A DNA stretch of 64,000 nt, from NCBI GenBank assembly GCA_028826165.1, contig JAPDFW010000103.1, positions 248,001-312,000 on the forward strand, written 5' to 3'. This document shows positions 741 through 31,323 of this stretch, piece by piece. A program made the translations under genes and the position numbers. A model generated the notes under the pieces. It was not told where the DNA came from, did no database searches, and saw only the letters and a list, made by a program, of their open reading frames with translations. The stretch's first letter is position 1, and each line of letters starts with the position of its first letter. The stretch comes from Anaeramoeba ignava BMAN. Its lineage: Eukaryota > Protista > Anaeramoebae.

Positions 741-1683
741 AATAAAAATTTACATACTAAATTATTTGTAAATGATTTATTAATTGTTTGTAAATCATTT
801 CTTTGATATTTACTTTCTAATTATAATCATTTTATTTCAAAAAAATTAATCAAATTTTTATTCATTTATTAAAAAAAATCAATCAAACATTTTTAATCTC
901 TATATCAGCACCAAAAGAAAGGAAATCATAAATAATATGTTCTGAACATTTCCAAAAACAAGCAAAATGAAAAGGTGTATTTCCCTAAATAAAAATTTAA
1001 AAAAGAAAATCAAACTAAAAAAAAATCATAAAAACAAATTATTTTTAAAATTTTTTATTTATTTATCAGAAAAAAACTTACTTAAATTTAATTTTCAATT
1101 TGAATTTTGCTTAAAAATTATTCAGTTATAAAATTACAGCCTAAATTAAATTCAAATTAAATTCAAATTAAGTTCAAATTAAGTTCAAATTAAATTCAAA
1201 TTAAAAGTTAAATTTTTTTACAGACTTTTTTGTTAATAAATAAAAAAATTTTCAATTATAAATTCAATTTTATTATAATATTATTTTACATTTTGAATAT
1301 TTGGATTCGCTTCATTTTTTAATAATAATAAAATTATTTCATGATTTTTTCCTTTGCTTGCAAAATGTAATAAAGTATTTCCATCCTAAAATAAAAATTA
1401 AAAATCAAATAAAAAATTTATGAATTAAAACAATTTTAAATTATAAAAGAAATTTACTTTCTAAATTATTTTTTATTTTGAATTAATATTTATTTTAAAT
1501 TATAAAAGAAATTTACTTTCTAAATTATTTTAAATTAATTTATTTTGAATTATTTTTATTTTGAATTGAATTATTTTTTATTTTAAATTATTTTACATTC
1601 GGTTTATTAATTCCAGAAGAAGAAACTAATTTTCTAACTTTTTCAATATCATGAGTTTCAATTGCTTTTTGAATTTCGGACAT
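1..1683 (-). CDS. Ankyrin-repeat protein (Ank1) with single-codon microexons; 3' part runs off the window start
   Basis: Manual splice model: exon 1683-1597 (MSEIQKAIETHDIEKVRKLVSSSGINKPN); microexon AAA at 1519-1517 and/or 1460-1458; exon 1385-1290 (DGNTLLHFASKGKNHEIILLLLKNEANPNIQN); TCT 1224-1222; GCT 1140-1138; exon 984-889 (GNTPFHFACFWKCSEHIIYDFLSFGADIEIKN); AAA 816-814; TAT 756-754. All junctions are GT-AG and phase 0. Confidence 0.88.
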
Positions 1684-1790
1684 TTTAAAAATTATTAAAA
1701 GAAAAAAAATGAAAAAAAAAATTTTAAATTTAAATTTTTTCATTTTCATTTTTTTTTAATTTTTATTTAAATTTTTAATCAAAAAAAAAA
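1684..1790. promoter_or_regulatory. 107-bp bidirectional promoter region (Ank1/VPS41) with T-rich TTCATTTT initiator-like motifs on each strand
   Basis: Head-to-head ATGs at 1683(-) and 1791(+). AAAATGAAAA at ~1706-1715 and TTTTCATTTTCATTTT at ~1737-1752. Confidence 0.55.
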
Positions 1791-4700
1791 ATGTCAAATG
1801 AAAATTCAAATGAAAATACAAATGATAAAAATATTATAATGGATAATGAAACAGAAATTCCAAAACAATTTATAATTCCAAACAAAATACATGACGATTT
1901 TTTAGATGCTTTTCTTGAAGAAGATGATGAAATTGAAGAAGAAAATTATGAAAAACCACCTCTTTTAAAATATGAAAGAATAGGATCTTTTAATATACAA
2001 AAAGAAGAAAATGATCAAGAATTATCACAAACAATATCTTGTTTAAAACTTACTAATAATTCTTATGTATATTAAAGATTTGGATCAACTTATTTAATTT
2101 AAAAAAAAAAAACGGAAAAAAAAATATTGAAAAATTTTTTTATTGAGAAAAATCAAAATTCAGACAATCTTTTATTATATAATTATAATCAAATGTTCTT
2201 TATTTTAATTATGATTCCATTTTTTTTATAATGATTTGTTGTTTTTTTATTATTCAGATAATTGGAACTCATCAAGGAAAAATATACAACTTACCATTTG
2301 ATAAAATTGTTGAATTTAAATCACAATTTTCTTATGAATCAACACTTATTGATATTTGTCTTGATTCAACATGTAGATATATTGGAGCATGTTTTAGAGA
2401 TGGTATTAAGAAAAATTGAAAACAATTATCAAGTCTTTTAATATTGATTTGGATAAAAAAATTAATTTTGATTTTATTTTGTTTTGAAAAGGAACTGTTA
2501 TTGTGTTTGATTCATTAAATGATCAAGCTACAAAATTTGATTTTGATGATCAAATTACTTGTCTTGCAATTCATCCTAATTTCAAGCCAAAAGGAGGTTC
2601 TTGTGTTTGTGGAACTAAAACAGGAAAAATTATTTATCGAGAAAAAAGTGAATTTGAAAATTAAAATCAAAATCAAAATTAAAATTAATATTAAAATTAA
2701 AATTAAAAAAAGAATTCTTTTCAAGATCAAAAATTCTTTATTCGGGAAACGGTGAAATAATTTCATTAACATGGAAATCAAATTATATTGTATGGAGTAA
2801 TCAAGAAGGAATATTTGTATTTGATATTGAAACTGAAAATCCACTTGGAGTAAGTGATTAAATTTATTTAAAAAAAAAACAAAGAAGGAAAAAATTGAAA
2901 AAAAAAGGAAAATTGGAAATATAAAAACCAAAGAAAGTACCACCTTTATCAGGTTCATTCCCATCACTAAACAATTACAGATGCAATTTTAAATGGATCT
3001 CTTCAGATTCATTCATAGTTGGATGGGCAAATGTGATTATCCAAATCCAAATAACCAAACAAAGAACAGTCAAATGGAAAAGTCTTCCACCTTTTAATTT
3101 TATAATTTGTGGGATTGGATTTCATGACAACGACTATTTAGTGTTCACAATGGAACACTTGAAAAGTCGGTTAACAGATGAAAAAATAGGGAAAATTTTG
3201 AAAACAATCCAAAACTTCCACGAAAAGAAGGAAAAAAAGCAAGAAGAAATAGAAGAAGAAATAAAAAAGGAGGAAATATTTGAATATTTACAAAATCAAT
3301 TCAATTTAATCCCCGACGTGAGAATAATCACGCAAAAGGGGGAAGAAATATTAAAAGAAACGATATCAATAAAAGGATATGAAGTATGCAGTCACATTGA
3401 TTTCCGGATGGAAACTCAATGCATGGATTGGGAGATCGACAGGGGATGCCAGACGCAATCAAAGCTGTATGTCTTCACGTCGCCGTTCCAATTTGTGCGT
3501 GCGACGGAAGCTGATGCCGACGACAAAGTAACTTGGCTTGTCGAAAGATTACGGTATCAGGACGCCTTTGATGTTGCTCTGGAAAACTCGGGTCGGTTGA
3601 AAAGAAACAACCCGACAAAACTCGGCGAGAATCTTCTTCGACACTTGCTCGCCTCGAAGAATAAGTTCAAGATCCAATCAGCGGCCCTGCAGTGCCCAAA
3701 GGTCTGCGGCGAAAATCCGTTGATGTGGGAAAAGTGGATCTCGCAGTTCTTCGAGAACCAGCAGTTTCAAGAAATCTCGCCATACATCCCCATTCAGAAT
3801 CCCCGTTTGAAACAGGAAATATACGAAATGATCCTCAACTCGTTTCTTGAAAACGATAATCTCGACTTATTTTACCAAACAATCAACAAATGGCCAAAAA
3901 ATATATACAATCCAAGAGCCATAATTCTCATCATTTTGGACAAGCAAAAAAAAATCAACTCGCTCGACGAACGTCTTGCACTTCCGTTGGCCGATTTATA
4001 TATTGAAATTAAGGAATACGACAAAGCGCTCAAAATCCATTTTTATCTCAAAAAACTTGATGTTTTTGAAATGATTGAACTTTATAATATTTTCGACTCG
4101 GTGAGCCACAAAATTTCTGAGCTCATCAAACTCGACGCAACCAAAACAATCCAACTTCTGGTTCTCAACACAGACAAAATTGCACCCTCAATTGTGGTGC
4201 CGCAATTGTCAAACAACAAGCAACTTCTTTATCAATATCTTCTTGATTTATCGGATCGCAATCCAAAATCGATCCAAGATTATCATGTGAATTTAATGAA
4301 GCTCATTTTTGAATTCGACCCCAAAAACCTCCTCAATTTCTTCAAGGGATCCAACTACGTCCCTTTGGAAATTGCTTATGAATTTTGCCAAAAAAATTCT
4401 CTTTATAATGAATCTGTTTATATTTTGAAAAGAATGGGCCAAAATTTAGATGCCCTTATACTGATGTTGGACAAGCTTAAAAACATCAACAAGGCAATAA
4501 AATTTGTGATGAAGGAAAATGACAACGAATTAATGACTCGGTTGATCAATTATTGCCGAAGTTCAAATCCAAATTTTTTCACTCCTCTTTTGAAGAGTGT
4601 TGTTCATTCCCAATTCCAGATCACAAAGCTTTTGCAAAGAATCCCACAAGGCGTGGAAATACCAAAACTCGGAGAAGCTCTCAAATTTCTTTTGTTGGAA

Positions 4701-4976
4701 TACCAGTCAAAAGTTAAACTCAAAAATCTAGCAACTGAGGTTATTATTCGTGACTGTGCCGGATTGATGTTTTCTTTAAATTCAAGAATGAGAATGGGAA
4801 TGGTCATCCAAAAGGATAGGATTTGTCCCATTTGCTCAGGCAAAATTGTTCAATCTGATGATGTTGTTCTTTTTTTCTGCGGTCATACTTTCCACAAATC
4901 TTGTCTTCGTGAAAAAACTTCAAATCAACCTTTTTGCACTGAATGTGCTGTTAAACAAAAATCAGATAATGATTGA
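1791..4976 (+). CDS. VPS41: Vacuolar protein sorting 41 (HOPS subunit): WD40-like N-terminus, clathrin/CHCR repeat, C-terminal RING
   Basis: EKPPLLKYERI, IGTHQGKIY and DDKVTWLVERLRYQDA motifs; C-terminal CPIC...FFCGHTFHKSC..CTEC. Four GT-AG introns (2067-2257, 2403-2491, ~2649-2712, ~2850-2933) join the exons in frame. Confidence 0.92.
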
Positions 4977-5248
4977 TTGATTAATTAATTAACTAAATAT
5001 TAACGTTGATTTTTTCCTTTTTCCTTTTTCCTTTTTTCTTTTTTCTTTTTTAGTGTTTTTCTCAAAATAAAAGAGAATTAATTTAATAATTTAATTTTGT
5101 TCCACTTTTTTTTAAATTTATTTTCTTTTACAATTTTACTTAAATTTTTTTTAAATTTTGTTAATTAATTCTTATTAAAAAAAGAATCAAAAAAAAATAT
5201 CTTTGTTTTTCAATTTAAAATTCTTCTAATAAATTTCATTTCTTTTCT

Positions 5249-7061
5249 TTAATTAATTATGATTGATCTTGATTTTGATTTTTGAGTTCCATTTATATTT
5301 TTAGGATCATTTTCAATATTTGAACAATGAATATAACCTTCTTTATTTGATTGAAGATGCTTTACAAAAAGTAAATCATTTTTTTCTTTTGAAATGATAA
5401 AAAAATCATCTCCTTTTTTATAAGAAAGAAGAGAAGAATCATTTTCAGGTGCAATAAATTTTTTTTTTGCATAAACTTTGGTGAATTTTTTTCCAATAAA
5501 CATAAGATGATATTCATCGAATCTTTCCATTAAAATTCCACTATTTTTAAAAATGTAAAAATTATTTTAATTTTATGAATATTTCTTTTTTATCAGTTTT
5601 AATTTACGGAAATGTTCCTATTTGTTTTTTTTGATTCATTCCAAGCCACCATCCACTTTTATCTTGAGATATTATACCAATAACTTCTCCTTTTTCAAAT
5701 GATAAATCTTGATCATTATTTCCAAAAAAATTAACAAGAGATCTGATTTATAAAATAAATAATCATTTAAGATTGATTTTTCATAATTTTTTTAAGATTG
5801 ATTTTATATACCTTGTTTTAAATAATATTTTTTGATCACTTGATTCAAAAATCTTTTGGATTTCATTTTCATTTAATTCATTTTGATTTTGATTTTCATT
5901 TTCATTTTCATTTTCATTTTCATTTTCATTTTGATTTTCATTTAATTCATTTTGATAATTTTCATTTTGATAATCTTCATTTTCATAATTTTGATCATAA
6001 TTTTCATTTTGATAATCTTCATTTTCATAATTTTGATCATAATTTTCATTTTCATAATCTTGTTGTTGATAATTTTCATTTTGATAATTTTGATTTAATT
6101 CATTTTGATAATCTTCATTTCCATAATTTTGTTGTTGATAATTTTGTTGTTGATAATTTTCATTTTGATAATTTTGTTGTTGATAATCTTCATTTTCATA
6201 ATTTTGTTGTTGATAATTTTGTTGTTGATAATTTTCATTTTGATAATTTTGTTGTTGATAATTTTGTTGTTGATAATTTTGTTGTTGATAATTTTCATTT
6301 TGATAATTTTGTTGTTGATAATCTTCATTTTCATAATTTTGTTGTTGATAATTTTGTTGTTGATAATTTTGTTGTTGATAATCTTGTTGTTGATAATTTT
6401 CATTTTCATAATTTTGTTGTTGATAATTTTCATTTTGATAATTTTGTTGTTGATAATTTTCATTTTCACAATTTTGATTTAATTCATTTTCATAATTTTC
6501 ATTTTCATAATTTTCATTTTGATAATTTTCATTTTCATAATTTTCATTTTGATAATTTTGTTGTTGATAATTTTGTTGTTGATAATTTTGTTGTTGATAA
6601 TTTTGTTGTTGATAATTTTGTTGTTGATAATTTTGTTGTTGATAATTTTGTTGTTGATAATCTTGTTGTTGATAATTTTCATTTTGATAATTTTCATTTT
6701 GATAATTTTGTTGTTGATAATTTTCATTTTCATAATTTTGTTTTTGATAATTTTGTTGTTGATAATTTTGTTTTTTTCTAGTTTTATTTTGAATTTCAAT
6801 TTGTATTTCAATTTTATCATCTTTATAATTATTTTGAATTTTATTTTTATTTTGGATTTTGTTTATATTTTTATTTTGAATTTTATTTATATTTCTATTT
6901 TGAATTTTGTTTATATTTTTATTTTGAATTTGATTTATATTTTTATTTTGAATTTTGTTTATATTTCTATTTTTTGGATTATTTTTAATATTAAAATTAG
7001 ATTGTGAAGGATTTTGTGTTATCTTTTCAAATTTAGCTAATAAATTTCTAAAATTTGACAT
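5249..7061 (-). CDS. Double-SH3-domain protein with a long N-terminal YQQQN/YENEN pentapeptide-repeat region
   Basis: ORF 7061-5781 splices (donor ~5810) to SLVNFFGNNDQDLSFEKGEVIGIISQDKSGWWLGMNQKKQIGTFP (SH3-1), then (donor ~5587) to the ORF ending at 5249 containing AKKKFIAPENDSSLLSYKKGD...EGYIHCSNIE (SH3-2). Confidence 0.85.
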
Positions 7062-7365
7062 TTTAAAAAAAAAAACAATTTAAAAAAAAATGAAAAAATG
7101 AAAAAATGAAAATGTTTTTTTTTTGCTAAATTTTTGAAAAGAAAATAAAGAAGAAAAAAAAAAGAAGAAAAAAAAGAAAAAGAAAAAAAGAAAGAAAAAA
7201 GAAAATTGAATTTATCCTTGAATTTAAAATTGAAATTGGATATAAATTTAAAATTGAATTTGAATTGAATTTAAAATTGAATTTAAAATTGAAATTGAAT
7301 TTAAATTGAAAATTGAATATAAATTGGAAATTGGATATAAATTGAAAATAGAATTTAGATTAAAA

Positions 7366-7923
7366 TTAATTGGAATCTTTTTCACTTTCTACTTCGTCAT
7401 TATCTTTTTTAGTTTCTCTATCTGAATTGTTACTATCATTATCACTTTGGTTATTATCCTGATTTTCATTTGAATTTTTATCTGAATCTTTATCTAAATC
7501 ATCATCTGAATTATTATTTGAATCTTCATTTGATTTTTTATCTGATTTTTTATTTGATTTTTCATTTTGATTTTCATCTGAATTTTTATCTGAATCTTCA
7601 TTTGAATCTTTATTTTGATTTTCATTTGATTTTTTATCTGAATCATAATCTAAATCATCATCTGAATTTTCATCTATATCTGAATCATTATCTGAATCAA
7701 CATCTTTTGTTAAATTAGTTGAACTTTGTAAAGTAATAAGATCTTCATTTTGGTTATCATTATCATTATTATTATCATTATCATTATTATCATTATCATT
7801 ATTATTATCATTATTATTATCATTATTATTATCATTATCATTATCATTATTATTATCATTATCATTATTATCATTATTATCATTATTATTATTATTATCA
7901 TTATTATTATCATTATTATTATC

Positions 7924-7958
<35 letters not shown>

Positions 7959-10900: not shown

Positions 10901-13900
10901 ACAATTTTACATTCTGGACAAGTTAGAGTTGATTTGAAAAGACCTTGAAATAAATCAACAATAATTGAATCATTTCTTATTTTGTGTTTTTTCCAAGATT
11001 CTTCTGCAATATCTTCTTCATTTCTATTATATCCTTGTACGGGATCTGTTGTTGTTTTATCTTTGATTCTATTTAAATCTTCGTGTAATCCATCTAATAA
11101 AAATGCACAAAATTCTTGTGAATCTTGTTGTGATGTTCCTAAAAATTGTTTTGCATATTTTCCAATAGAAGATTTTAAACCATATGGATAAATCGAAGAA
11201 TAACTTCCCGACCAAACCTAATAATATTTTATATATTTTAAATATTTTAATATTTTAATATTTTTTATATTTTTTATATATTTAAAATATTTTATATATT
11301 TTATATATTTTATATATTTTAAATATTTTATATTATTTTATATATTTTATATATTTTATATACATCTTTCATAAGTTTCCCAAATTCGATAGCAATTTCA
11401 CCTTTCATTCCAATCTTATTTGTAGTATTAATTTCAGAAGTATATAAACCAGATAAGAAATATTGAGCTAAAGGAGCGGTGTTATGAAGACATTGAAGAA
11501 TTGAATTCATAAAACAGGTATTTCCAATATTAGATAAACCAGTTAAACCTCTAATAGCATCACTTTTATGATAGTTATAATTATAACTATTGCTCATTCC
11601 ATATCCAGTGCTTTGTGTGGTATTAAGTGATGAAGTTGAATAAGAAATACTTGATCTTAAATTAAATTATTTAAATTAAATTAAAAATTTCAAAATATTA
11701 TATTTTTATATTAATCTACTTTTCTTTTGTTTCTGATTCTGATTCGAATTTAATAATGATATTAAAAGGTTCTAATGAATTTAAATTTCCTAATAATTCA
11801 TTTTCATCTTCAATTTTTTCTATTCTAAAGTAGTTTATATAAAGGTCGACTTTATTTAAATAAATTTAAATAAATTTAATTTTAAAATCATTTGATATGA
11901 TTTATGATTTATCAAAAAAAATATTTTACAATTTTCTTTTAAATCATAATGTTCTTTAATTTTTTTTCTAAGAACTTTCACTTTTTCAGTTCTACTTAAA
12001 TAAAATTTGGTTTTTTGATATTTTTTATTCTCAAATTTCACTTTGATCTTTAGTTTGTGAATCTCAAGTCGAGGAGAAAAATCTTTTTTTAATTTAATAT
12101 AATAAAAGCGAAGTTCTGGTCCACCTCCATATCTTTATATTTAATTTTTAATTTTTAATTTTTAATTTTAATTTTGATTTTGATTTTGATTTTAATTTTA
12201 ATTTTGATTTTGATTTTAATTTTAATTTTAATTTTAATTTTGATTTTAATTTTAATTTTAATTTTAATTTTTAATTTTTAATTTTAATTTTGATTTTAAT
12301 TTTAATTTTAATTTTTATTTTAATTTTAATTTTAATTTTAATTTTAATTTTAATTTTAATTTTAATTTTGATTTTAATTTTGATTTTGATTTTGATTTTA
12401 ATTTTAATTTTAATTTTAATTTTAATTTTAATTTTAATTTTGATTTTAATTTTAATTTTAATTTTAATTTTAATTTTGATTTTTATTTTAATTTTAATTT
12501 TGATTTTGATTTTGATTTTAATTTTAATTTTGATTATTTACTTTTTTTGAAGATATTTCCAAATAGGAGCAGCTAAAACTTTATAATTCATGGACTCTTT
12601 AATAGATTTACTTACTTGACCATTTTGAAGAAGTATTGAATTATCTATTGGTTTTAAAGATTCATAATCAGGATCATCTTCTTCTGATTTAATATAAGAT
12701 TTCCAATCAGAATACCAAGATGTATTAATTAAATAACCACTATCTCCTGCTTTAGTTTCTGGTAATAATCTCACTTTATTTACTAAATATTCATATTCCT
12801 CAGCTTTCGTTAATATTTGATTTTCATCATCCAAATCTATTTCACTTTCTGAATCTATTTTAATTTTTTATCAGATTTTTATTTGAATTTAATTTTAATA
12901 TTAATTTTAATTTTAATTTTGATTTTAATTTTAATTTTGATTTTAATTTTAATTTTAATTTTAATTTTAATTTTAATTTTAATTTTAATTTTAATTTTAA
13001 TTTTAATTTTTTAATTTTTACTTTGAGTTTCATTTGTATCTTCTTCTAAGTTAATTGATTCTAATTCTTCCATTTTTTTTGCACCTCCAGTTTTGAGTTT
13101 TTGATTTGCATAATTTGATAAATAAAATTCCATAGGATTTTGATTTTTATTTTCATTTTCATTTTCATTTTGATTTTGATTTTGATTTTGATTTTGATTT
13201 TAATTTTAATTTTGATTTTGATTTTAATTTTAATTTTGATTTTGATTTTGATTTTGATTTTAATTTTAATTTTGATTTTAATTTTGATTTTAATTTTAAT
13301 ATTAATTTTGATTTTGATTTTAATTTTAATTTTAATTTTAATTTTTACTTTGAGTTTCATTTGTATCTTCTTCTAAGTTAATTGATTCTAATTCTTCCAT
13401 TTTTTTTGCACCTCCAGTTTTGCGTTTTTGATTTGCATAATTTGCTAAATAAGATTCCATAGGATTTTGATTTTTATTTTCATTTTCATTTTCATTTTCA
13501 TTTTGATTTTGATTTTGATTTTCATTATCATTTTCATCTTGATTTTCATTTTCATTTTGATTTTCATTATCATTATCATTTTCATTTTCATTTTGATTTT
13601 CATTTTCATTTTCATTTTCATTTTCATTTTCATTTTCATTTTGATTTTCATTTTGATTTTGATTTTCATTTTCATTTTGATTTTCATTTTCATTTTCATT
13701 TTCATTTTCATTTTCATTTGAACTTGATTCATATTCTGATGATTTTTGTTCTTGTTGTTTTTGTGAAATTGCTTTATTTGCTTTTGTATTTTCAGAATCG
13801 CTTTCTGATCTTGTTTGCGAATCTGTTATTTCTATCACTCTTTTAGGCGGTTTGTTTTTTTGATTTTTTAAATCATCTTCTATTTGTTTCTCTTTTGTTT

Positions 13901-19634: not shown

Positions 19635-19775
19635 ATTTGGAATTATTTTTTCTTTCTTTCTTTTCTTTCTTTTCTTTTTTTTTGGATTTAATTTGAAAAT
19701 AATTGGATAATGAAAAGAAAATCAAATAAAAACAAATTCAATAAAGAATTTTAATTTTAATTTTAATTTTAATTA

Positions 19776-21554
19776 TTAATTATTAAATTTGTTAATTAAT
19801 AAATCAAATAAATTTGGATTTGTTTGGTTTAATTGAAAATAATCAATTCCAACTTGAAGTTCATTAATAATTTCTTGTGTAATTTCAATTTCTTCTTTAA
19901 TTTGATTTGAATAAATCCAATATTCTAATATTTGAAATGATTTATTACTTAATTCACTATAATCTTTAACTTTGTTAGATTTATCTTCTGTAACAGATAA
20001 AAACATTCCTCGATATAATTCACTTCTCATTATTAATATTAATTTAGGAAATTTATATTGTTTTTCTTTTCTTTCAATAATAAAATCTTTTTCATTTTCA
20101 TTTTCATTTAAATAAATTCTTTTCATTGTTTCTTCAATTTTTTCATTTGAATTTATAATTTCTTTAATTTCAGAATATAATTTTGGATTTATTTTGGAAT
20201 TATTTGAATAAATCATTTCAAATATTTGATTTGATTCTTTAATTGATTTATTTGAAATAATTTCTTGAAGTTTTTCAATTTGATTTTCAATTTGATTTTG
20301 ATTTTGATTTAATCTATATTTCAATATTAATTTATGAGCTTCAATTATTTCTCCATTTTCTGTTTTAAATGAAATATCACAAAATTCTTTTCTTTGAAAT
20401 AATTTTATCAAATCTTCTTCAAGATTAGAAAAAGGAGGAGGAGAATAATAAATAAATGTATGATAAACTCCACAAGAAATATGATAATTAGAAATTTCTT
20501 CATTAAATCTTAATTTAGGAAGTTTAATTCGAATTGGAAATGGTTGATCTTCTGTATCTCCAGTTCCTAATTCACCAGAATAATTATTTCCAAATACTAT
20601 TAATTTTGAATTGGAAGTTAAAATCAAAGTATGATAATAACCAACAGAAAAATCAAGAATATAATCATTTTCAAATAAAGATGATTTTATTTCAGTAAAT
20701 CCATAAGTATCTTTCTCAAGTCCATTATATTGCCAATATCCACATGAATAAAGTTTTCTTTTTGGATTTTGATTTTCATTTTCAATCAACATTATTGAAT
20801 AAGTACATCCACATTTAATATCAATTATTTTACCTTTTGGAATATTTTGTATTTTGGTTAATTCTTGGATTTTTGTTTCTTCTTTTCTTGTTGATGTTCC
20901 TAATCCAACTTGATCATATTGATTATCTCCGCATCCAAATAATTCTTGATTTGAATTTAAAAGAAACATATGATAAGAAGAATTTCCTGAAAATATTTTA
21001 GAAACATTTTTCATCATTAAAATTGGTTTTTTTGTTTCTTTAAGTGTTTCAGAATCAAAACCAAGTTGACCATATCTATTTAAACCAATTCCATAAACAT
21101 TTTGATTTGAAGTTAATAAGTAAATTGAAACTTTTCCAGAAACAATATCTTCAATTATTCTATCATTTTTATCTTCAATTAATGATGAAATATTGATAAA
21201 TTCTTTTGGTAATCCTGCAAATATGTTTGTACTTATTTTGGCAAATACATTTCCTTCTTTTGTTAAAATAGCTTCATTTGAATAACCAACAGTTACTTTT
21301 TCAATATTTTCTTCAATTTGGATTTCTTCAGGTTTTTGATTTGAATCATTTTCACTTAAATATTCTATTGCTTTTCCATTTTCAAAAAGGAAAACTATTG
21401 AAAAAAAGCCTGATGAGATTTGTTTAATTTGTTTTTCATTTTCATTTTCATTTTCAAAATTAAACTGAATTGGAATTGGTTTTGTTATTTTATTTGGTTC
21501 ATTTTTTAAAAGAATTGGAAATATATTTCTTCCAAAAAATAAAATTTCATTCAT
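19776..21554 (-). CDS. RCC1-repeat + tandem BTB domain protein (copy A), intronless
   Basis: RCC1 repeats (YGIGLNRYGQLG, FGCGDNQYDQVGLG, FGNNYSGELGTGD, VGYYHTLILT); BTB-like FCDISF..IEAHKLILKYR and KLILIMRSELYRGMF. Confidence 0.88.
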   Translation of the reverse strand: MNEILFFGRNIFPILLKNEPNKITKPIPIQFNFENENENEKQIKQISSGFFSIVFLFENGKAIEYLSENDSNQKPEEIQIEENIEKVTVGYSNEAILTKEGNVFAKISTNIFAGLPKEFINISSLIEDKNDRIIEDIVSGKVSIYLLTSNQNVYGIGLNRYGQLGFDSETLKETKKPILMMKNVSKIFSGNSSYHMFLLNSNQELFGCGDNQYDQVGLGTSTRKEETKIQELTKIQNIPKGKIIDIKCGCTYSIMLIENENQNPKRKLYSCGYWQYNGLEKDTYGFTEIKSSLFENDYILDFSVGYYHTLILTSNSKLIVFGNNYSGELGTGDTEDQPFPIRIKLPKLRFNEEISNYHISCGVYHTFIYYSPPPFSNLEEDLIKLFQRKEFCDISFKTENGEIIEAHKLILKYRLNQNQNQIENQIEKLQEIISNKSIKESNQIFEMIYSNNSKINPKLYSEIKEIINSNEKIEETMKRIYLNENENEKDFIIERKEKQYKFPKLILIMRSELYRGMFLSVTEDKSNKVKDYSELSNKSFQILEYWIYSNQIKEEIEITQEIINELQVGIDYFQLNQTNPNLFDLLINKFNN

Positions 21555-21597
21555 TTTTGAAAAGAAAAAAATGAAAAAAATAATTTTAATTTTAATT

Positions 21598-23361
21598 TTA
21601 ATTTTGATTATTAAATTTCTTAATTAATAAATCAAATAAATTTGGATTTGTTTGATTTAATTGAAAATAATCAATTCCTCTTTCTATCTCATCAATTATT
21701 TCTTGTGTAATTTGAATTTCTTCTTTAATTTGATTTGAATAAATCCAATATTCAAATATTTGGAATGATTCATTACTTAATTCACTATAATCTGTAACTT
21801 TATTAGAAGTATCTTCTGTTACAGATAAAAACATTCCTCGATATAATTCACTTCTCATTATTAATATTAATTTTGGAAATTTATATTGTTTTTCTTTTCT
21901 TTCAATTATAAAATCTTTTTCATTTTCATTTAAATAAATTCTTTTCATTGTTTCTTCAATTTTTTCATTGGAATTTATAATTTCTTTAATTTCAGAATAT
22001 AATTTTGGATTTATTTTGGAATTGTTTGAATAAATCATTTCAAATATTTGATTTGATTCTTTAATTGATTTATTTGAAATAATTTCTTGAAGTTTTTCAA
22101 TTTGATTTTCATTTTGATTTAATCTATATTTTAATATTAATTTATGAGCTTCAATTATTTCTCCATTTTTGGTTTTAAATGAAATATTGCAAAATTCTTT
22201 TCTTCTAAATAATTTTATCAAATCTTCTTCAAGATTAGAGAAAGGAGAAAGTGAAAGGAAAGGGGAATAATAAAGAAATGAATTTTGAAATCCACAAGAA
22301 ATATGATAATTGGAAATATTTTCATTAAATCTTAATTTAGGAAGTTCAATTTGAATTGGAATTAATTGATTATTTGTATCTCCAGTTCCTAATTGGCCAA
22401 ATCTATTATCTCCAAATCCTATTAATTTCCCTTTATATGTTAAAATCAAAGTATGATTATATCCAACAGAAAAATCAAGAATATCATCATTTTCAAATAA
22501 AGATGATTTGATTTCAGTAAATTCTTTTGTATCTTGAATTTTGCCAAAACCGTTATTTTGAGAATATCCACATGAATAAAGTTTTCTTTTTGGATTTTGA
22601 TTTTCATTTTCAATCAACATTATTGAATGCCAACTCCCACATTTAATATCAATTATTTTACCTTTTGGAATATTTTGTATTTTGGTAAAGTTTTTGATCG
22701 TCTTTTCTTTTCTTGATTCTCCTAATCCAAGTTGACCGTTTGCATTATTTCCTGATGCAAATAATTCTTGATTTGAATTTAAAATAAAGATATGATAAGA
22801 AGAATTTCCTGAAAATATTTTAGAAACATTTTTCATCATTAAAATTGGTTTTTCTGCCTGAGTTGGTGATTTAGAACCAAGTTGAGAATAATAATTATCA
22901 CCAAAACCATAAGCATTATGATTTGAAGTTAATAAGTAAATTGAATTTTCTCCGCAAACAACATCTTCAATTATTCTATCATTTGTATCTTCAATTAATG
23001 ATGAAATATTGATAAATTGATTTGGATTTTTTGGATTAATAGCATATCCTTTTGCAAATACATTTCCTTCTTTTGTTAAAATAGCTTCATTTTGAAAACC
23101 AAAACTTACTTTTTGAATATTTTCTTCAATTTGAATTTTTTCAGGATTTTGTTTTGAACTTTGTAAATATTCTATTGCTTTTCCATTTTCAAAAAGGAAA
23201 ATTGTTGAAATCCAACTTGTTGAAATTTGTTTAATTTGTTTTTCATTTTCATTTTCATTTTCATTTTCAAATTTAAATTGAATTGGTTTTGCTATTGTTT
23301 CTGTTTCATTTTTGAAAAGTTTTGGTTTTTTATTTCTTCCAAAAAATAAAATTTCATTCAT
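21598..23361 (-). CDS. RCC1-repeat + tandem BTB domain protein (copy B), intronless; true start at 23361
   Basis: Paralogue of copy A beginning MNEILFFGRN. The ORF-track extension to 23658 is read-through from an upstream gene fragment. Confidence 0.88.
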   Translation of the reverse strand: MNEILFFGRNKKPKLFKNETETIAKPIQFKFENENENENEKQIKQISTSWISTIFLFENGKAIEYLQSSKQNPEKIQIEENIQKVSFGFQNEAILTKEGNVFAKGYAINPKNPNQFINISSLIEDTNDRIIEDVVCGENSIYLLTSNHNAYGFGDNYYSQLGSKSPTQAEKPILMMKNVSKIFSGNSSYHIFILNSNQELFASGNNANGQLGLGESRKEKTIKNFTKIQNIPKGKIIDIKCGSWHSIMLIENENQNPKRKLYSCGYSQNNGFGKIQDTKEFTEIKSSLFENDDILDFSVGYNHTLILTYKGKLIGFGDNRFGQLGTGDTNNQLIPIQIELPKLRFNENISNYHISCGFQNSFLYYSPFLSLSPFSNLEEDLIKLFRRKEFCNISFKTKNGEIIEAHKLILKYRLNQNENQIEKLQEIISNKSIKESNQIFEMIYSNNSKINPKLYSEIKEIINSNEKIEETMKRIYLNENEKDFIIERKEKQYKFPKLILIMRSELYRGMFLSVTEDTSNKVTDYSELSNESFQIFEYWIYSNQIKEEIQITQEIIDEIERGIDYFQLNQTNPNLFDLLIKKFNNQN

Positions 23362-23417
23362 TTTTGAAAAGAAAAAAATGAAAAATGAAATTTTAATTTT
23401 AATTTTAATTTTAATTT

Positions 23418-23722
23418 TGATTATTAATAAATCAAATAAATTTGGATTTGTTTCATTTAATTGAAAATAATCAATTCCAGTTTTAAATTCATTAATTATT
23501 TCTTGTGTAATTTCAATTTCATCTTTAATTTGATTTGAATAAATCCAATATTCAAATATTTGAAATGATTTATTACTTAATTCACTATAATCTGTAACTT
23601 TATTAGATTTATCTTCTGTTACAGATAAAAACATTCCTCGATATAATTCACTTCTCATTATTAATATTAATTTTGGAAATTTATATTGTTTTTCTTTTCT
23701 TTCAATTATAAAATCTTTTCAT
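23418..23722 (-). pseudogene. 5'-truncated RCC1-BTB fragment (last ~100 codons)
   Basis: EKDFIIERKEKQYKFPKLILIMRSELYRGMF...NPNLFDLLI is nearly identical to the 3' ends of copies A and B, and directly abuts the minisatellite at ~23722. Confidence 0.85.
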
Positions 23723-23995
23723 TAATTTATTTCAAAAATGGAATAAAGAATATTAAATAATTAAATTTAAAATTAATTATATTTTATATATTTTATTAAC
23801 ATTTCTTTATTTAAAATAATATAAAATTATTCCCAATAATTTAATAAAATTAATAAAATATTTTAATTAATTTATTTCAAAAATGAAATAAAGAATATTA
23901 AATAATTAAATTGAAAATTAATTATATTTTATATATTTTATTAATATTTCTTTAAAATAATATAAAATCATTACAAATAATTTAATAAAATTGAA
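23720..23995. repeat. ~144-bp minisatellite type 1 (about 2 units), 3' of BTB-TLDc copy 1
   Basis: Unit TTAATTTATTTCAAAAATGGAATAAAGAATATTAAATAATTAAA... is repeated; same family as 45760-46780. Confidence 0.8.
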
Positions 23996-24809
23996 AAGAA
24001 AATGAATTTTATTTTAATAAAGATAAATATTTAATTTTAATAATATTTAATAATAATTTAATTTAAATATATTTTTAATTTAATTTAAAATAATATTTTA
24101 ATTTTTTATTTTATTATTATATTTTTATTTATTTATTATTCAATTTTAATTAATTAAAATAAAATAATATTAAAAAGTGGAATAAATTTTTTTAATAAAT
24201 ATATATATTTAATTTTAATAATATTTAATAATAATTTAATTTAAATTTATTTTAATTTAATTTAATATAATATTTTTATTTATTATATTAATATTTTTAA
24301 TTATTTATTATTCCAATTTTAATTATAATAAAATATATTAAAAATAAAATTAAAAATTAAAAATTTTAAATAAATTGAATTTAACATGATTGAATAAGAT
24401 AAACTTTCTAAAAAAATAATTTACTAATTATTCTATTTTTGATTTTGATTATAATTTATTAATATTTAAATATTAATTAATAATAAATTTTATTTGATTT
24501 TTTTTATTTTAATATTTTAATTAATGAATTTAAATTTAATTATTATTAATTTCTATTTTCAATTTTTATTTTTATTTATTATATTAAAAATATTCAATTT
24601 TTTTAAAATTTATTATTTTTTTTTTTGGATTATTTTTATTAATTAAATTTTTAATAAATATTTTAAATTAAAATTAAATTATTTAAAATTAAATTTGTTT
24701 TTTATTATTTTAAAGAAATTAATTTGATTAAAAGTAAATTAAAATTGAATTAAATTTTGAAAAAAAAAAATTAAAAAAAAAGTTTGATTTTCTTATTATT
24801 AATTAATTT

Positions 24810-26474
24810 TTAAATGAAATAAGTTTCAACTTCATCAACAACCCATGAAGAATAAGAACCAGCTAAATAACTTTTACCTTCATTTGTATTCCAAGTAATT
24901 CCATTAGGTAGATTATAACTATGACCAAAATTTGAATTACCAGGTTGTAAATTAGAATTTAACCAAATATCATTATATCCATTTCCACCACCAAATAATG
25001 GACCATAACTATTATAGTTTGAATGAATTGCATATCCTTCATGACCTTGTTTAATTGTAAACTTTGCAGGTATTCTATCCCCTTTATCATTTCTTAATGA
25101 AAAAATAAATGCATTTGAATCATTAATCCATTCTCCACCTGTTGAATATTTAAATCCAACTTGAGTAAAACCTCCAAAAATAAAATTATCTTTTGTTTTG
25201 ATAATAATTAATGTTTTTACTTTCCCATCAACTGCTTTATGCCAATTTTGACAATTAAATCCATCTTTTTTTGCTGAAAATCCTTTTTTCATTTTAGAAA
25301 AAAAATCATTATCATTTATCCATTCTTGTAATTTCTTAACATATTCAATATCTTTAATAATTTCTGAATCTGAAAATTGAGGAAAATTCTTTTTTAATTC
25401 AATCTCTGCTTTCAAATCTTGATTTTCTTTCTTCCATTTCTCCTCAATTTCTTTGTTTTTATCTTCAACTTCTTTCTTCCATTTCTCTTCAATTTCCTTT
25501 TCTTTGTTTTCAATTTCCTTCTCTTTTTTTTCAATTTCTTTGTTTTTCTCTTCAACTTCTTTCTTCCATTTATCTTCAATTTCCTTCTCTTTGTTTTCAA
25601 TTTCTTTTTGATTATCTTGAATAACTTTGTTTTGAATATCAACTAAAAAAGATTTAGGAAAAAAATCAAATTGTTTTAATTTATCAAAATCTTGTTTTGA
25701 AATTGAATCTTTATCAAATAATGAAAAAAAAGAATGAAATAATCTTTTCTTTTCAATTCCTTTTTCTTTTTCTTTTTCTTTTTCTTTCTTTCCTTTTAAT
25801 CTTTCATTTCTTTTTTCAATCCAATTATTTAAAAATTGAAAAAAATCAAATTGAAAAATTTCTTTTTTTTCTTGTTTAAATTGAATAAATTTGATAATTT
25901 CTTCTTTAGTTAAATTGAATAAATTCTCATTATTCTGAATTTGGGAAAAATTTTGATTTATTAATTCAAAACATTTTATTTCAATTTCATTTGAATTTAA
26001 ATTTCGATTTTGAAATAAAAATTGGAAAAAATTTGAATAATTAATTGAATTTAAAATTTTTTTTTGAATAATTTCTTTCAATAAATTTAATTTAAAATAA
26101 ATTGAAATTTCTAATAATTGAATAAGATTTTCTTGATTCTCAAAAGAAATATTTCCATAATAAATATAACTCAAAATTGATTCCATTTCTTTTTTATTAA
26201 ATTGATTTAAAGAAATAGAAAGAGATTCTTGTCTTAATGACTCATTAAAAAAAGGAGATCTTGAAGATAAAATTGATTTATGAACTTTAATTTCAAAAGG
26301 ATTTGATTTATTCTCAACAAAAATTGAAAAATCTTTAAATGAATTTCCATTTAAAAGGTTTGAATAATTTTTAATTAAATTTTTTGTTACTTTTTTTTCT
26401 AAATTTTTCATTTCATTTTCATTTTGATTTTGATTTGCATTTTCAATTTGGTTGTTATTATTATCATTATCCAT
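24810..26474 (-). CDS. BTB + coiled-coil + TLDc domain protein (copy 1), intronless
   Basis: BTB: FKDFSIFV..IKVHKSILSSRSPFF. TLDc: GFSAKKDGFNCQNWHKAVDGKVKTLIIIKTKDNFIFGGFT..AFIFSL..GPLFG..VDEVETYFI. Confidence 0.92.
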   Translation of the reverse strand: MDNDNNNNQIENANQNQNENEMKNLEKKVTKNLIKNYSNLLNGNSFKDFSIFVENKSNPFEIKVHKSILSSRSPFFNESLRQESLSISLNQFNKKEMESILSYIYYGNISFENQENLIQLLEISIYFKLNLLKEIIQKKILNSINYSNFFQFLFQNRNLNSNEIEIKCFELINQNFSQIQNNENLFNLTKEEIIKFIQFKQEKKEIFQFDFFQFLNNWIEKRNERLKGKKEKEKEKEKGIEKKRLFHSFFSLFDKDSISKQDFDKLKQFDFFPKSFLVDIQNKVIQDNQKEIENKEKEIEDKWKKEVEEKNKEIEKKEKEIENKEKEIEEKWKKEVEDKNKEIEEKWKKENQDLKAEIELKKNFPQFSDSEIIKDIEYVKKLQEWINDNDFFSKMKKGFSAKKDGFNCQNWHKAVDGKVKTLIIIKTKDNFIFGGFTQVGFKYSTGGEWINDSNAFIFSLRNDKGDRIPAKFTIKQGHEGYAIHSNYNSYGPLFGGGNGYNDIWLNSNLQPGNSNFGHSYNLPNGITWNTNEGKSYLAGSYSSWVVDEVETYFI

Positions 26475-26869
26475 TTTGTTTTTTGTTTTTTGTTTTTTGT
26501 GTTTTTGTTTTTGTTTTTTAAAAAAAAGGAAAAAAATGAAAAAAAAAAATTTAAAAAAAAATGAATAAAAAAAGTGGATTTTGAAAATAAATAAATATAA
26601 AAAATAAGAATAAATTTAAATTAATAATTAATTTAATTTTCTTTTTAATTTATTATTTTAAATTAATTTATTAATAAATTATTATTATTTTTTATTAATT
26701 TTTATTATTAAAAAAAAGGAAATTTATTTTAATTTAATTTTTAATTTAATTTTTTTTTGGAATTTAAAAATTATTAATAAATTTAAATTTAAAAACAAAT
26801 TTCTAAATTAATATTAATTCAATTTAATTCAAAAAGATAAAATTTTAATTTCAAAAAAATCAATTTTCA

Positions 26870-28305
26870 AAATATTTTTAAATAATAAAATATTTAAATC
26901 TAAAACATTAAATTATTATTTTAATAATAAAATTAAATATTAAATTATATTTTTAAATTAATTTATAAATTAAATATTAAATTAAACCTATTTTTATTTT
27001 TTATATTTTTATGTTAAATATTTAAATAATAGAATATTTAAATCTAAAGCAATAAATTATTATTTTAATAATAAAATTAAATATTAAATTATATTTTTAA
27101 ATTAATTTATAAATTAAATACTAAATTAAATCTATTCTTATTTTTATATTTATATGTTAAATATTTAAATAATAAAATATTTAAATCTAAAACAATAAAT
27201 TATTATTTTAATAATAAAATTAAATATTAAATTATATTTTTAAATTAATTTATAAATTAAATATTAAATTAAATCTATTCTTATTTTTATATTTTTATGT
27301 TAAATATTTAAATAATAAAAATATTTAAATCTAAAAACAATAAATTATTATTTTTTAAACATAAAATTAAATATTAAATTATATTTTTAAATTAATTTAT
27401 TAATTAAATATTAAATTAAACCTATTCTCATTTTTATATTTATGTGTTAAATATTTAAATAATAAAATATTTAAATCTAAAACAATAAATAAATTATTTT
27501 ATTGTTTCTTCATAAAATTAAATATTAAATTATATTTTTAAATTGATTTTTAAATTAAATAAATTCAAAATTTGATTTGTTCTTTATTTTTATATTTATA
27601 TGTTAAATATTTGAATAATAAAATATTTAAATCTAAAACATTAAATTATTATTTTAAACATAAAATTAAATATTAAATTATATTTTTAAATTAATTTATA
27701 AATTAAATATTAAATTAAACTTATTCTTATTTTCTATATTTATATGTTAAATATTTAAATAATAAAATATTTAAATCTAAAACAATAAATTATTATTTTA
27801 ATAATAAAATTAAATATTAAATTATATTTTTAAATTAATTTATAAATTAAAAATAATAAATTAAATATATTCTTATTTTTATATTTATATGTTAAATATT
27901 TAAATAATAAAATATTTAAATATAAAACATTAAATTACTATTTTAATAATAAAATTAAATATTAATTTATATTTTTAAATTAATTTATAAATTAAATATT
28001 AAATTAAATCTATTTTCGTTTTTATATTTATATGTTAAATATTTAAATAATAAAATATTTAAATTTAAAACATTAAATTATTATTTTAATAATGAAATTA
28101 AATATTAAATTATATTTTTAAATTAATTTATAAATTAAATATTAAATTAAATCAATTCTTATTTTTTATATTTATATGTTAAATATTTAAATAATAAAAT
28201 ATTTAAATCTAAAATATTAAATTATTATTTTAGACATAAAATTAAATATTAAATTATATTTTTAAATTGATTTATAAATTAAATATTAAATTAAATCTAT
28301 TCTCA
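26870..28305. repeat. ~143-144-bp minisatellite type 2, about 10 units, upstream of BTB-TLDc copy 1
   Basis: AATAATAAAATATTTAAATCTAAAAC recurs at ~26881, 27025, 27168 and onward. Confidence 0.88.
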
Positions 28306-28309
28306 TTTT

Positions 28310-28428
28310 TTATTGATTTTGATTATTAAATTTGTTAATTAATAAATCAAATAAATTTGGATTTGTTTGATTTAATTGAAGATAATCAATTCCAATTTGA
28401 AGTTCATCAATAATTTCTTGTGTAATTT
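28310..28428 (-). pseudogene. Short 5'-truncated RCC1-BTB 3'-end fragment
   Basis: Translates to ITQEIIDELQIGIDYLQLNQTNPNLFDLLINKFNNQNQ*, matching the C-termini of copies A and B. Confidence 0.85.
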
Positions 28429-28567
28429 TTCAAAATAAAATCTATTCCAAAATTTTCTTTTCAAAAACTTTTTATTTGTTCTCAATCTTTTTAAAATAAA
28501 CAATAAAATTTCAAAAAATTAATCAATTTGAAAACCAAATTTAAAATTCATCAAATAATAAATCTAT

Positions 28568-31323
28568 TTAATTATCTTCAGTTCGAGCACAAAAACATTT
28601 ATGAAAAAAACCCTTTTTTTTTGGAAACATTTTTTCTTTTAAAAGAGTTTTAATTTCTTCATTTTCTGTTAAATCAAGTGCAGTTTTTCCCTTTTAAATT
28701 AAGGAATATAAAAAATAAGAACATTTTGATTAAAATTCTTCTTTTTTTTTGGAAAGTAAAAATATTTTCATTTAAATTTTACTTCCTAAATTTTCAAAAA
28801 ATAAAACAATATAAATTTCAAATGAAATTGTTTTTTTTTCAAATCTAATTATTTTATTTACAAAATCTCTTTTGAAAACAGAAGCTTTTGCATTTAGTAA
28901 TTCTTTTACAATTTCAACACTACCAATTTGTGCTGAAAACATAAGAGCAGTTTCTCCCTAAATTAATTAATTTTTATTGATAAATATTTTTCAATTACAA
29001 TTTTCATAAATAAATACTGCCTAAAAATTAAAAATTCAAAAAATTCAATTAAAAATTCAATTAAAAATTCAATTAAAAATTTTAAAAAGAATTCACAAAA
29101 TTTTGTAAATCAACATTTGCTCCTTGAGCAATTAATTCTTTTGCAACTTCAAAATGAACAAAATTTGAAGCAAAATGTAAAGCACTATTACTCTAATTAA
29201 TTCAAAAAAAAAGAAGAAGAAAAATATGACATTTTTTTTTAGAATTTGGAATATTTTTTTTTTTGGAAAATTTACTTCCTTTTAAAAAAAAAATAAATTA
29301 AAATAAAAAATTTAATAAGAAGAAAGTTTTTTCTTGAAATTACATGATCAGTATGATTTATTTCTGCATCATATTTTATTAGTTCTTGAACCATAGCTAA
29401 ATTTCCATATCTTGAAGCAAATATTAAAGGAGTTACTTTCTTAAAATTAAATCAATATTAAATCAATATTAAATCAAAATTAAATAAATTTAAATCAAAA
29501 TATTAAATCAAAATTAAATCAAAATTAAATCAAATTTAAATCAAATTAAATTAAAATTAAATATAAATTAAATCAAATTTAAATCAAAATTAAATCAAAA
29601 TTAAATCAATCAAAATTAAATCAATATTAAATTAAAATTAAATCGAAATTAAATCAAAATTAAATCAAAATAAAAAATTTCTTTTGAAAAATATTTCATT
29701 TTCAAATCTTATTTTCATAATAATAATAATAATAATAAAAAAAACAATTATTAAATTTGAATATAAAAAAATTGTTTTAATTAATTTATTGAGACAAGAT
29801 AAACCTTATCACAACAATTTGGATCTGCTTTGTTTTCAAGTAAATAACGAAGAACATCCAACTGCCCATTTTGAGAAGCAATTAATAAAGGAGTTGAACC
29901 CTTTAAGAATATTTAAAATGAATTTTTGAATTTTAATTTTGATTTTTATTTTGAATTAAAAATTTACATTCTATTTCAAACAAAATAAAATCATTAATTT
30001 TCATCTTCTTTATTAAAAAAAGAAAATGCAATTTATTTTACCAATGTTTGTTTTTCAATATCAGCTTGATTTTCCACTAAATATTGAACAATTTCTAAAC
30101 TTCCTTGGTCAGATGCATAATGAAGAGGAGTCCATCCCTTTTAATAATAATAATAATTTTAAATAATCAAAATAATTTTAAATAAAACAAAATTTACATT
30201 TAAACAAAAATAAAAATTTAAATTAATTTTAAATAAATAAAATTTAAATTGATTTTTAAATAAATAAATTGATTTTAAATAAATAAATTGATTTTAAATA
30301 AATAAATTAATTTTAAATAAATTGAATTGAATTTTAAATAAATTAAATTGATTTTAAAATAAATAAATTAATTTTAAATAAATAAAATTGATTTTAAATA
30401 AATAAATTGATTTTAAATAAATGAATTGGGATTTTAAATAAATAAATTGATTTTTAAATAGATGAATTGATTTTTAAATAAATAAATAAATTTTAAATAA
30501 AATAAATTGATTTTAAATAAAATGATTTTAAATAAATAAATAAATTTTTTAAATAAATAAATTGATTTTAAATAAATTAAATTTATTTTAAATAAATAAA
30601 TTGATTTTAAATAAATAAATTCATTTTAAATAAATAAATTGATTTTTAAATAAATAAATTGATTTTAAATAGATGAATTGATTTTAAATAAATAAATTCA
30701 TTTTTAAATAAATGAAGTTGATTTGAAATAAAAATGAATTGAATTCATTTTAAATAAATAAATTGATTTTAAATAAATGAATTGATTTTAAATAAATAAA
30801 TTGATTTTAAATAAATAAATTGATTTTTAAATGAATTGATTAATTTTAAATAAATAAATTGATTTTAAATAAATAAATTGATTTTAAATAAATAAATTGA
30901 TTTTAAATAAATAAATTGATTTTAAATAAATAAATTCATTTTAAATAAATAAATTGATTGATTTTAAATAAATAAATTGATTTTAAATAATTGAATTGAT
31001 TTTAAATAAATAAATTGAATTGATTTTAAATAAATAAATGAATTGATTTTAAATGAATTGATTTTAAATAAATAAATGGATTGGTTTGAATACTCCTAAA
31101 TCTTGATTAATATCTACTCCTTGTGAAACAAGCATTTTTATTGAAGAAATATCATTTTTTTCAATAGCTTCTTGAAGGGTATAAAGTTCCTTTTATTTAA
31201 ATATAAAAAAATTTTTTTTTTAATTGAATAATTTCTCAATTTATTTTTATTTGCATTTTTATTATTTATAATTTAAATTATAAAAGAAAAAATTGGAAAA
31301 TTATTTACTAAAAGATAATCCAT
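28568..31323 (-). CDS. Ankyrin-repeat protein (Ank2) built of 96-nt exons and 3-nt microexons
   Basis: Exons: 31323-31309 (MDYLL); 31189-31094; 30137-30042 (GWTPLHYASDQG..); 29900-29805 (GSTPLLIASQNG..); 29439-29344 (KVTPLIFASRYG..); 29192-29097 (SNSALHFASNF..); 28957-28862 (GETALMFSAQIG..); 28690-28568 (GKTALDLT..ARTEDN*). Microexons AAT 29970-29968, GAA 29278-29276, GCA 29020-29018, GAA 28785-28783. Confidence 0.92.
30205..31075. repeat. (TTTTAAATAAATAAATTGA)n ~19-bp satellite in an Ank2 intron
   Basis: Visible degenerate tandem array. Confidence 0.88.

What the first reader, a model, noticed from the sequence alone, without database searches (positions are those of the whole stretch)
754..29970. 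Microexons map onto the variable target-contacting beta-turn positions of the ankyrin repeat
Seen: the microexon-encoded residues (K, S, A, K, Y, N, E, A, E) always occupy positions 2 and/or 3 of D/N-x-x-G-x-T-P-L-H. Established: these xx positions are beta-turn residues on the ankyrin binding face and are among those randomised in DARPin libraries. Inference: placing specificity-determining codons on their own frame-preserving exons could let skipping, duplication or mutually exclusive use retune binding one residue at a time. The alternative is a neutral by-product of intron gain or duplication at the repeat boundary.
Basis: partly seen in the sequence, partly recalled or inferred. Interest (0 to 1): 0.78.

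Follow-up and report, generated by a model that had tools for sequence, protein, structure and literature searches.

The report
One-codon exons in amoeba ankyrin hairpins
Two ankyrin-repeat genes of the anaerobic amoeba Anaeramoeba ignava carry ten three-base segments framed by splice signals at the binding hairpin of the repeats, and a spliced transcript of one gene includes such bases; they are likely fixed building blocks that the public model of the other gene misses, not a shown way of switching binding.

Summary
The architecture is real; the diversification idea is unsupported. Two minus-strand ankyrin genes of Anaeramoeba ignava (gene A = KAJ5069562.1, ankyrin-BTB; gene B, ankyrin only) have 96-nt exons separated by intron / one codon / intron. 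There are 10 AG-NNN-GTA hits on the sense strand of these genes and none in 19 other candidate introns. One spliced contig of gene B carries three extra bases at 3 of 3 junctions it spans. The public model of gene A omits all its microexons.

Against tuning: each junction holds just the codons that restore the repeat register, skipping lowers the ankyrin score, and no skipped form was seen (one contig, depth 3.5). One transcript codon (AAT) has no canonical template in the assembly.

Most likely these are constitutive exons made by stacking phase-0 introns at the repeat border, with small duplications as seeds of arrays. Codon-sized ankyrin exons are known from truffle nank genes, and Drosophila sowah has annotated 3-nt exons. 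This scan noted similar cases before on other DNA (Pelomyxa, SOWAH).

The parts
1597..1683 (-). Gene A exon 1 (N-cap repeat, ends at hairpin Asn); gene A = ankyrin-BTB protein KAJ5069562.1
   Evidence: identical to residues 1-29 of P0127; Ank + BTB by Pfam
1517..1519 (-). 3-nt microexon AAA (Lys, position 2), copy 1
   Evidence: AG/GT borders; not tested by RNA
1458..1460 (-). 3-nt microexon AAA (Lys), copy 2, supernumerary
   Evidence: one Lys fits the register, two do not
1433..1531 (-). 59-nt-spaced tandem duplication: 40 identical bases holding acceptor, codon and donor
   Evidence: strongest of 105 intron pairs, z 7.9; both copies printed
1290..1385 (-). Gene A exon 2, 96 nt (D-G-N-T-L-L-H ... 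N)
   Evidence: identical to residues 30-61 of P0127
1222..1224 (-). 3-nt microexon TCT (Ser, position 2)
   Evidence: not tested by RNA
1138..1140 (-). 3-nt microexon GCT (Ala, position 3)
   Evidence: not tested by RNA
889..984 (-). Gene A exon 3, 96 nt
   Evidence: read; residues 62-93 of P0127
814..816 (-). 3-nt microexon AAA (Lys, position 2)
   Evidence: not tested by RNA
754..756 (-). 3-nt microexon TAT (Tyr, position 3); the next exon lies beyond the window start
   Evidence: not tested by RNA
31309..31323 (-). Gene B exon 1 (MDYLL), predicted
31094..31189 (-). Gene B exon, 96 nt (N-cap repeat)
30138..31093 (-). 956-nt satellite-filled intron; AAT-GTAAAT at 30200-30192 lacks an AG in front
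30042..30137 (-). Gene B exon, 96 nt
   Evidence: spliced contig; Pfam Ank
29968..29970 (-). 3-nt microexon AAT (Asn, position 3), included in the spliced contig
   Evidence: tables 5 and 5c
29805..29900 (-). Gene B exon, 96 nt
29440..29804 (-). 365-nt satellite-filled intron; the spliced contig has AAT here but the assembly has no AG-AAT-GT
29344..29439 (-). Gene B exon, 96 nt
29276..29278 (-). 3-nt microexon GAA (Glu, position 3); contig offsets show 3 extra bases starting with G
   Evidence: table 8
29097..29192 (-). Gene B exon, 96 nt
29018..29020 (-). 3-nt microexon GCA (Ala, position 3)
   Evidence: no contig joins across it
28862..28957 (-). Gene B exon, 96 nt
28783..28785 (-). 3-nt microexon GAA (Glu, position 3)
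   Evidence: RNA support only a weak hint
28571..28690 (-). Gene B last exon (C-cap and a basic, Cys-containing tail)
   Evidence: no Pfam match

Best explanation
These three-base segments are single-codon exons at the ankyrin beta-hairpin that are likely spliced in constitutively, each supplying a residue the repeat needs for its normal register. They likely arose because phase-0 introns piled up at neighbouring codon borders at the repeat boundary (before positions 2, 3 and 4 of DxxG); the unit 96-nt exon + intron + codon + intron was then likely spread by old repeat duplication. Shown: the layout, inclusion of three bases at 3 junctions of gene B in one spliced contig, and a recent short duplication across acceptor-codon-donor that makes a new microexon. 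Inferred: near-complete inclusion, the order of events, and that the overlap with binding positions follows from the hairpin being the repeat border. The codons can still vary over evolutionary time, and such duplications would seed truffle-like arrays.
For: Microexon count equals the residues needed for N/D-x-x-G register at 6 of 7 junctions that have genomic candidates; the seventh has one spare identical copy. Scores against a profile of 448 natural junctions rise with inclusion: gene B best-domain 46.2 to 59.9, 47.7 to 59.4, 37.2 to 46.4, 44.5 to 53.0 bits; gene A 17.6 to 24.9 (K; KK 18.1), 22.3 to 33.0 (SA), 6.1 to 15.7 (KY). Natural spacing is 33 in 505 of 724 intervals and 32 in 17. The spliced contig includes 3 bases at 3 of 3 junctions, and the two listed joints are absent from the three DNA runs laid. 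Eight internal exons are all 96 nt and all introns are phase 0. Exons share only 14-44% identity with the first aligned exon and flanking introns show no clear kinship apart from the Lys/Lys pair, so the layout is old. Microexon donors are GTAAAT, GTAAAA, GTAATT or GTATTT, like ordinary introns here.
Against: RNA support is one contig at depth 3.5 from a run not on record as RNA; contigs drop minor forms, so skipping could be hidden. Gene A has no read support, and its public model skips all its microexons, which is probably an annotation miss but was not disproved. The last junction of gene B gains on whole-sequence score (22.2 to 36.4) but not on best-domain score (20.1 vs 19.9). The profile test is partly circular because it was built from 33-spaced repeats. 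A second contig (depth 2.8) retains the intron after GCA. Spacing of 34 is fairly common in natural repeats (103 of 724), so Lys-Lys inclusion could be tolerated. 0 of 19 other introns have such exons, which pure neutrality does not by itself explain. The AAT at 29805/29439 has no canonical template.
Confidence: 0.68

Rival explanations
1. Splice-level tuning of binding: hairpin codons are skipped, doubled or chosen alternatively to vary the surface of ankyrin adaptors, such as this ankyrin-BTB protein, like truffle nank genes.
For: Positions 2-3 are randomised binding positions. All candidates keep the frame. One supernumerary microexon exists with both splice sites intact and a 56-nt intron, close to the 57-nt intron between K and Y. 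Precedent in Tuber melanosporum. BTB domain in gene A suggests a Cullin-3 substrate adaptor (recalled function).
Against: No skipped joint in the contigs laid. The spare copy encodes the same residue. Only 1-2 codons per junction, against tens in Tuber. Gene B always uses position 3, which is Asp or Asn in 48% of 443 natural repeats; positions 2 and 3 rank 7th and 8th of 33 in entropy, below positions 5 and 13, which are not on microexons.
Confidence: 0.13
2. Evolutionary rather than splice-level tuning: isolating the hairpin codon between introns lets recombination, conversion or short duplication replace or add single surface residues between paralogues and strains, and selection keeps the layout for that reason.
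For: The 59-nt duplication shows the unit is mutable. The layout is confined to ankyrin genes in this window. Seven different codons occur among the 10 candidates.
Against: No sequence kinship among microexon-flanking introns of different repeats that would point to conversion. Where contigs of the two samples covered microexon codons, no other letter was listed. No strain or paralogue panel was available.
Confidence: 0.12
3. Most candidates are chance AG-NNN-GT strings or are normally skipped, and the public model without them is right.
For: The public model KAJ5069562.1 lacks them. Seven similar strings occur elsewhere in the window. A TAA triplet with AG/GT borders lies in gene A at 1080-1078.
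Against: Strand- and length-specific enrichment, 0 of 19 control introns against 4 of 4 called intron pairs in gene B, direct inclusion in a spliced contig, restored register.
Confidence: 0.04

Closest known systems
[quoted passage not shown] 2012, PMID 22289772; not held; seen only through passages of PMC4986451 and PMC13449251)
   Same: Codon-sized exons in ankyrin-repeat genes; frame-preserving.
   Different: Tuber has tens of mini-exons with extensive alternative splicing in NLR genes. Here there are 1-2 per junction at nearly every repeat, no NACHT domain was found, and no alternative splicing was seen.
Drosophila sowah microexons (PMC8042270 Table S4 rows ME2 TAT, ME3 GGC, ME19, ME119)
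   Same: Annotated 3-nt exons in a gene that is an ankyrin-repeat gene (recalled); earlier scan notes place them in the hairpin loops (not checked here).
   Different: A single animal gene family; orthology to these genes was not tested. Here the unit is a regular 96+3 module in two dissimilar genes of a metamonad.
One-exon-per-repeat ankyrin genes with a conserved intron position and phase (Street, Rose and Barrick 2006; seen only as a reference entry in PMC5100051; content recalled)
   Same: One repeat per exon module, phase-0 introns at the repeat border.
   Different: Two or three introns at neighbouring codon borders, leaving single-codon exons, instead of one intron and a 99-nt exon.

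Membership tests
Tuber nank-type mini-exon diversification system | Codon-sized exons within ankyrin repeats | tested here: met
Tuber nank-type mini-exon diversification system | NACHT (NLR) domain in the same protein | tested here: not met
   P0127 has Ank and BTB only; the gene B model is 240 aa of ankyrin repeats plus a short tail
Tuber nank-type mini-exon diversification system | Arrays of tens of mini-exons | tested here: not met
   at most 2 candidates per junction
Tuber nank-type mini-exon diversification system | Alternative splicing of the mini-exons | tested here: inconclusive
   one contig with inclusion at 3 of 3 junctions, no skipped joint; contigs cannot show minor forms
Ankyrin repeat proteins | Pfam Ank match and 33-residue register | tested here: met
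   7 of 9 exon peptides match PF00023; register restored by the microexons
Spliceosomal microexons (30 nt or less) | Bases included in spliced RNA between GT-AG introns | tested here: met
   met for AAT 29970-29968, and by offsets for GAA 29278-29276; gene A untested
SOWAH ankyrin family | Orthology to SOWAH / sowah | not tested
   no SOWAH sequence was compared; no relative of gene A other than its own record stood out (3 hits)

The most novel reading that the evidence does not exclude
Anaeramoeba builds its ankyrin adaptors from a 96+3 module whose hairpin codon is a separately spliced, duplicable cassette. The Lys/Lys duplication is the first step of a truffle-style array, and across the genome such cassettes are skipped, doubled or swapped to retune ankyrin-BTB ubiquitin-ligase adaptors. 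This would make the ankyrin hairpin a recurrent or very ancient hotspot for codon-by-codon diversification across eukaryote supergroups. A smaller side possibility is that the untemplated AAT uses non-canonical splice sites or trans-splicing.
Probability: 0.15. Interest if true: 0.8.

Novelty: new variant of a known kind. Interest (0 to 1): 0.48.

Why it matters
It extends single-codon ankyrin exons to Metamonada and shows the simple, one-codon-per-repeat state together with a caught-in-the-act duplication. That gives a testable route from ordinary repeat-border introns to the truffle-type arrays. In practice, the public model of gene A lacks five residues at its binding hairpins, so ankyrin sequences and intron counts for this genome are likely wrong in a systematic way. 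If deep RNA showed regulated skipping, it would be a protist case of somatic binding-surface variation.

Tried and rejected
No whole genome is held, so no genome-wide catalogue of ankyrin introns was possible. No RNA holder listed in the run search; 5 runs, one of unknown kind, which behaved as spliced. Gene A was not checked against reads, so use of its six candidates and of one or both Lys copies stays open. Satellite parts of gene B introns were skipped by the read tool, so the missing AAT template could not be checked in DNA runs.

A search with the last exon of gene B found 0 of 13 candidates. The profile search returned generic ankyrins, with no record named Anaeramoeba among the 120 listed of 3,667; these 120 were reused for repeat statistics and are biased toward the query. 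A metagenome scan for microexon + intron + GxTPLHxA gave 4 loci, none a microexon gene: one intronless ankyrin gene and three chance matches. No fold of the spliced proteins was made.

Considered and rejected: AAA at 29439-29437 as a microexon (it starts a 96-nt exon in the contig); TAA 1080-1078 as part of the normal protein (stop codon, weak donor); a processed copy in DNA as the source of the joints (absent from the three DNA runs laid).

Literature: five searches pairing microexon or exon-phase terms with ankyrin or Anaeramoeba found no report for this organism. 'Microexon' has 0 hits in four Anaeramoeba texts and in the searched supplements of PMC11550330; 4 of its 15 files were not searched, and bioRxiv supplements were not seen.

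Full report
Source. The window is 82% A+T. Its Vps41 gene and gene A match NCBI proteins KAJ5069563.1 and KAJ5069562.1 named Anaeramoeba ignava. This fits the published 80.65% genome and 91.86% intron A+T (bioRxiv 10.1101/2023.03.03.530753, section 9 read). No whole genome was held.

Anatomy. The finding joins two minus-strand genes 27 kb apart. Gene A starts at 1683 and leaves the window; its public protein is 327 aa with ankyrin repeats and a BTB domain. Gene B runs 31323-28571 and models as 240 aa of ankyrin repeats with a basic, Cys-containing tail. Eight internal exons are exactly 96 nt, and all introns are phase 0. Between them lie single codons with AG before and GT after. Gene A reads N-[K]-D-G, N-[S]-[A]-G, N-[K]-[Y]-N-K-T-P-L; gene B reads T-L-[N]-G, D-H-[E]-S, N-F-[A]-G, D-F-[E]-G. 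The 15 flanking introns measured are 56-92 nt.

Is it chance? No. The pattern gives 10 sense and 0 antisense hits in 3,707 bases of the two genes, against 7 hits in the rest of the window on both strands. Other lengths from 0 to 12 nt give 0-1 sense hits each in the two genes. Gene B has 4 against 0.21 expected, and 1 of 1,000 shuffles reached 4. A rough intron finder called 19 introns elsewhere, none with an internal AG-NNN-GT; in gene B it called 4 intron pairs, all 4 with the microexon. The finder is heuristic and misses long introns.

RNA. Of 5 runs listed, none is on record as RNA, and 4 were laid on gene B. Run X4 holds a 513-base contig (depth 3.5) lying on four exons with no mismatch. 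Two joints are listed with GT-AG ends and three letters between, AAT in sense in both; the third junction shows three extra bases by offset, starting with G, as GAA predicts. The listed joints are absent from the three DNA runs. A second contig (depth 2.8) starts at the GCA codon, keeps the next intron, and leaves 13 letters unlaid, the number expected if it continued through GAA into the last exon; this is a weak hint only. Contigs show presence, not proportion. Gene A has no read evidence.

A loose end. The AAT between 29805 and 29439 has no canonical template: both internal GTs of that 365-nt intron lie upstream of both internal AGs. This intron and the 956-nt intron 31093-30138 are the two filled with satellite and the two without a canonical microexon; the longer one has AAT-GTAAAT 60 bases before its acceptor but no AG in front. 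The published A. ignava assembly is Nanopore polished with short reads (PMC11550330 passage), and satellites elsewhere in the window look noisy. An assembly or allele difference is therefore the most likely reason; non-canonical or trans-splicing is not excluded.

A supernumerary copy. The first junction of gene A has two AAA microexons 59 nt apart, inside a tandem duplication with 40 identical bases spanning acceptor, codon and donor. One Lys fits the register (24.9 bits), none or two fit worse (17.6, 18.1). This shows directly how a short duplication creates a new intron and a new microexon. Because both copies encode Lys, choosing between them changes nothing; including both would add one residue.

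Do they tune binding? Positions 2 and 3 are randomised in a designed ankyrin library with consensus DxxGxTPLHxAAxNG, together with 5, 10, 13 and 33, and lie in the beta-turn of the binding face (PMC4308713 passages). In 443 natural 33-residue repeats from 120 retrieved proteins these two positions rank 7th and 8th of 33 in entropy, below positions 5 and 13; position 3 is Asp or Asn in 48% (four positions were fixed by the anchor pattern). Anchor spacing was 33 in 505 of 724 intervals, 32 in 17 and 34 in 103. Against a profile of 448 natural junctions, full inclusion raised the best-domain score at 9 of 10 junctions tested (the long first intron with X gained only 2.9 bits; the last junction of gene B did not gain). 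This test leans toward 33-spacing by construction. The public model of gene A skips every microexon; I read this as an annotation miss, but could not prove it.

Mechanism. Best reading (0.68): constitutive single-codon exons produced by phase-0 introns stacked at adjacent codon borders of the repeat boundary and spread by old repeat duplication. The two genes share the border between positions 2 and 3, and most junctions share the one before position 4. Exon peptides are 14-44% identical to the first aligned exon, and among 105 intron pairs the strongest similarity by far is the Lys/Lys pair, so the layout is old while that duplication is recent. That ankyrin genes tend to keep one intron position per repeat is recalled from Street et al. 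2006, seen only as a reference. Rivals: splice-level tuning (0.13), selection for evolvable codon cassettes (0.12), chance or normal skipping (0.04).

Known systems. [quoted passage not shown] These genes share codon-sized exons but fail the NACHT and array tests, so they are not members. Drosophila sowah has FlyBase-annotated 3-nt exons (PMC8042270 Table S4). Earlier notes of this scan report single-codon exons in ankyrin loops of Pelomyxa and of animal SOWAH genes; they gave me the Tuber and sowah leads and are unchecked AI notes. I found no report for Anaeramoeba in five searches or four texts; some supplements were not seen. A metagenome pattern scan found no further case among 4 matches.

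Verdict. A real and partly RNA-confirmed architecture, a new variant of a known kind in a new eukaryote supergroup, with a nascent duplication and one unexplained codon. The diversification role is unshown. Interest 0.48.

Noticed in passing
window 1078-1080 (-): A TAA triplet with AG before and GT after sits in the middle of a 153-nt intron of gene A, about twice the usual length; a decayed or poison microexon, or chance.
   Followed up: partly
window 29440-29804 (-): The spliced contig has AAT here with no canonical template in the assembly; the nearest strings are TGAA-AAT-GAAAT at 29700 and AG-ATT-TG at about 29707.
   Followed up: partly
window 36920-41150: About 4.2 kb of satellite inside what reads as an intron of a P-loop kinase gene (minus strand, VIGISGASRSGKG read by eye); its core looks noisy and unpolished.
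   Followed up: no
window 24810-26474 (-) and about 47582-49300 (-): Two near-identical intronless genes with duplicated flanks; the first is BTB-TLDc by Pfam; in the second the longest ATG frame covers only 281 aa, so it may be frameshifted or mis-assembled.
   Followed up: partly
window 19776-23658 (-): Two tandem intronless paralogues that look like RCC1-repeat + BTB proteins (label recalled, not tested), followed by a partial third 3' end; with gene A and the BTB-TLDc pair, BTB proteins are dense here.
   Followed up: no
window 45058-45663 (+): Intronless Ras-superfamily small GTPase, Rho/Rac-like by eye.
   Followed up: no
window 13021-13140 and 13350-13460: A roughly 120-base exon-like segment with its splice borders occurs twice in tandem within a minus-strand gene that looks like a ubiquitin-specific protease (read by eye); possible duplicated exon.
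   Followed up: no
window 28571-28690 (-): Gene B ends in a basic, Cys-containing tail (KKKGFFHKCFC...), which may be a lipidation or membrane anchor (inference).
   Followed up: no
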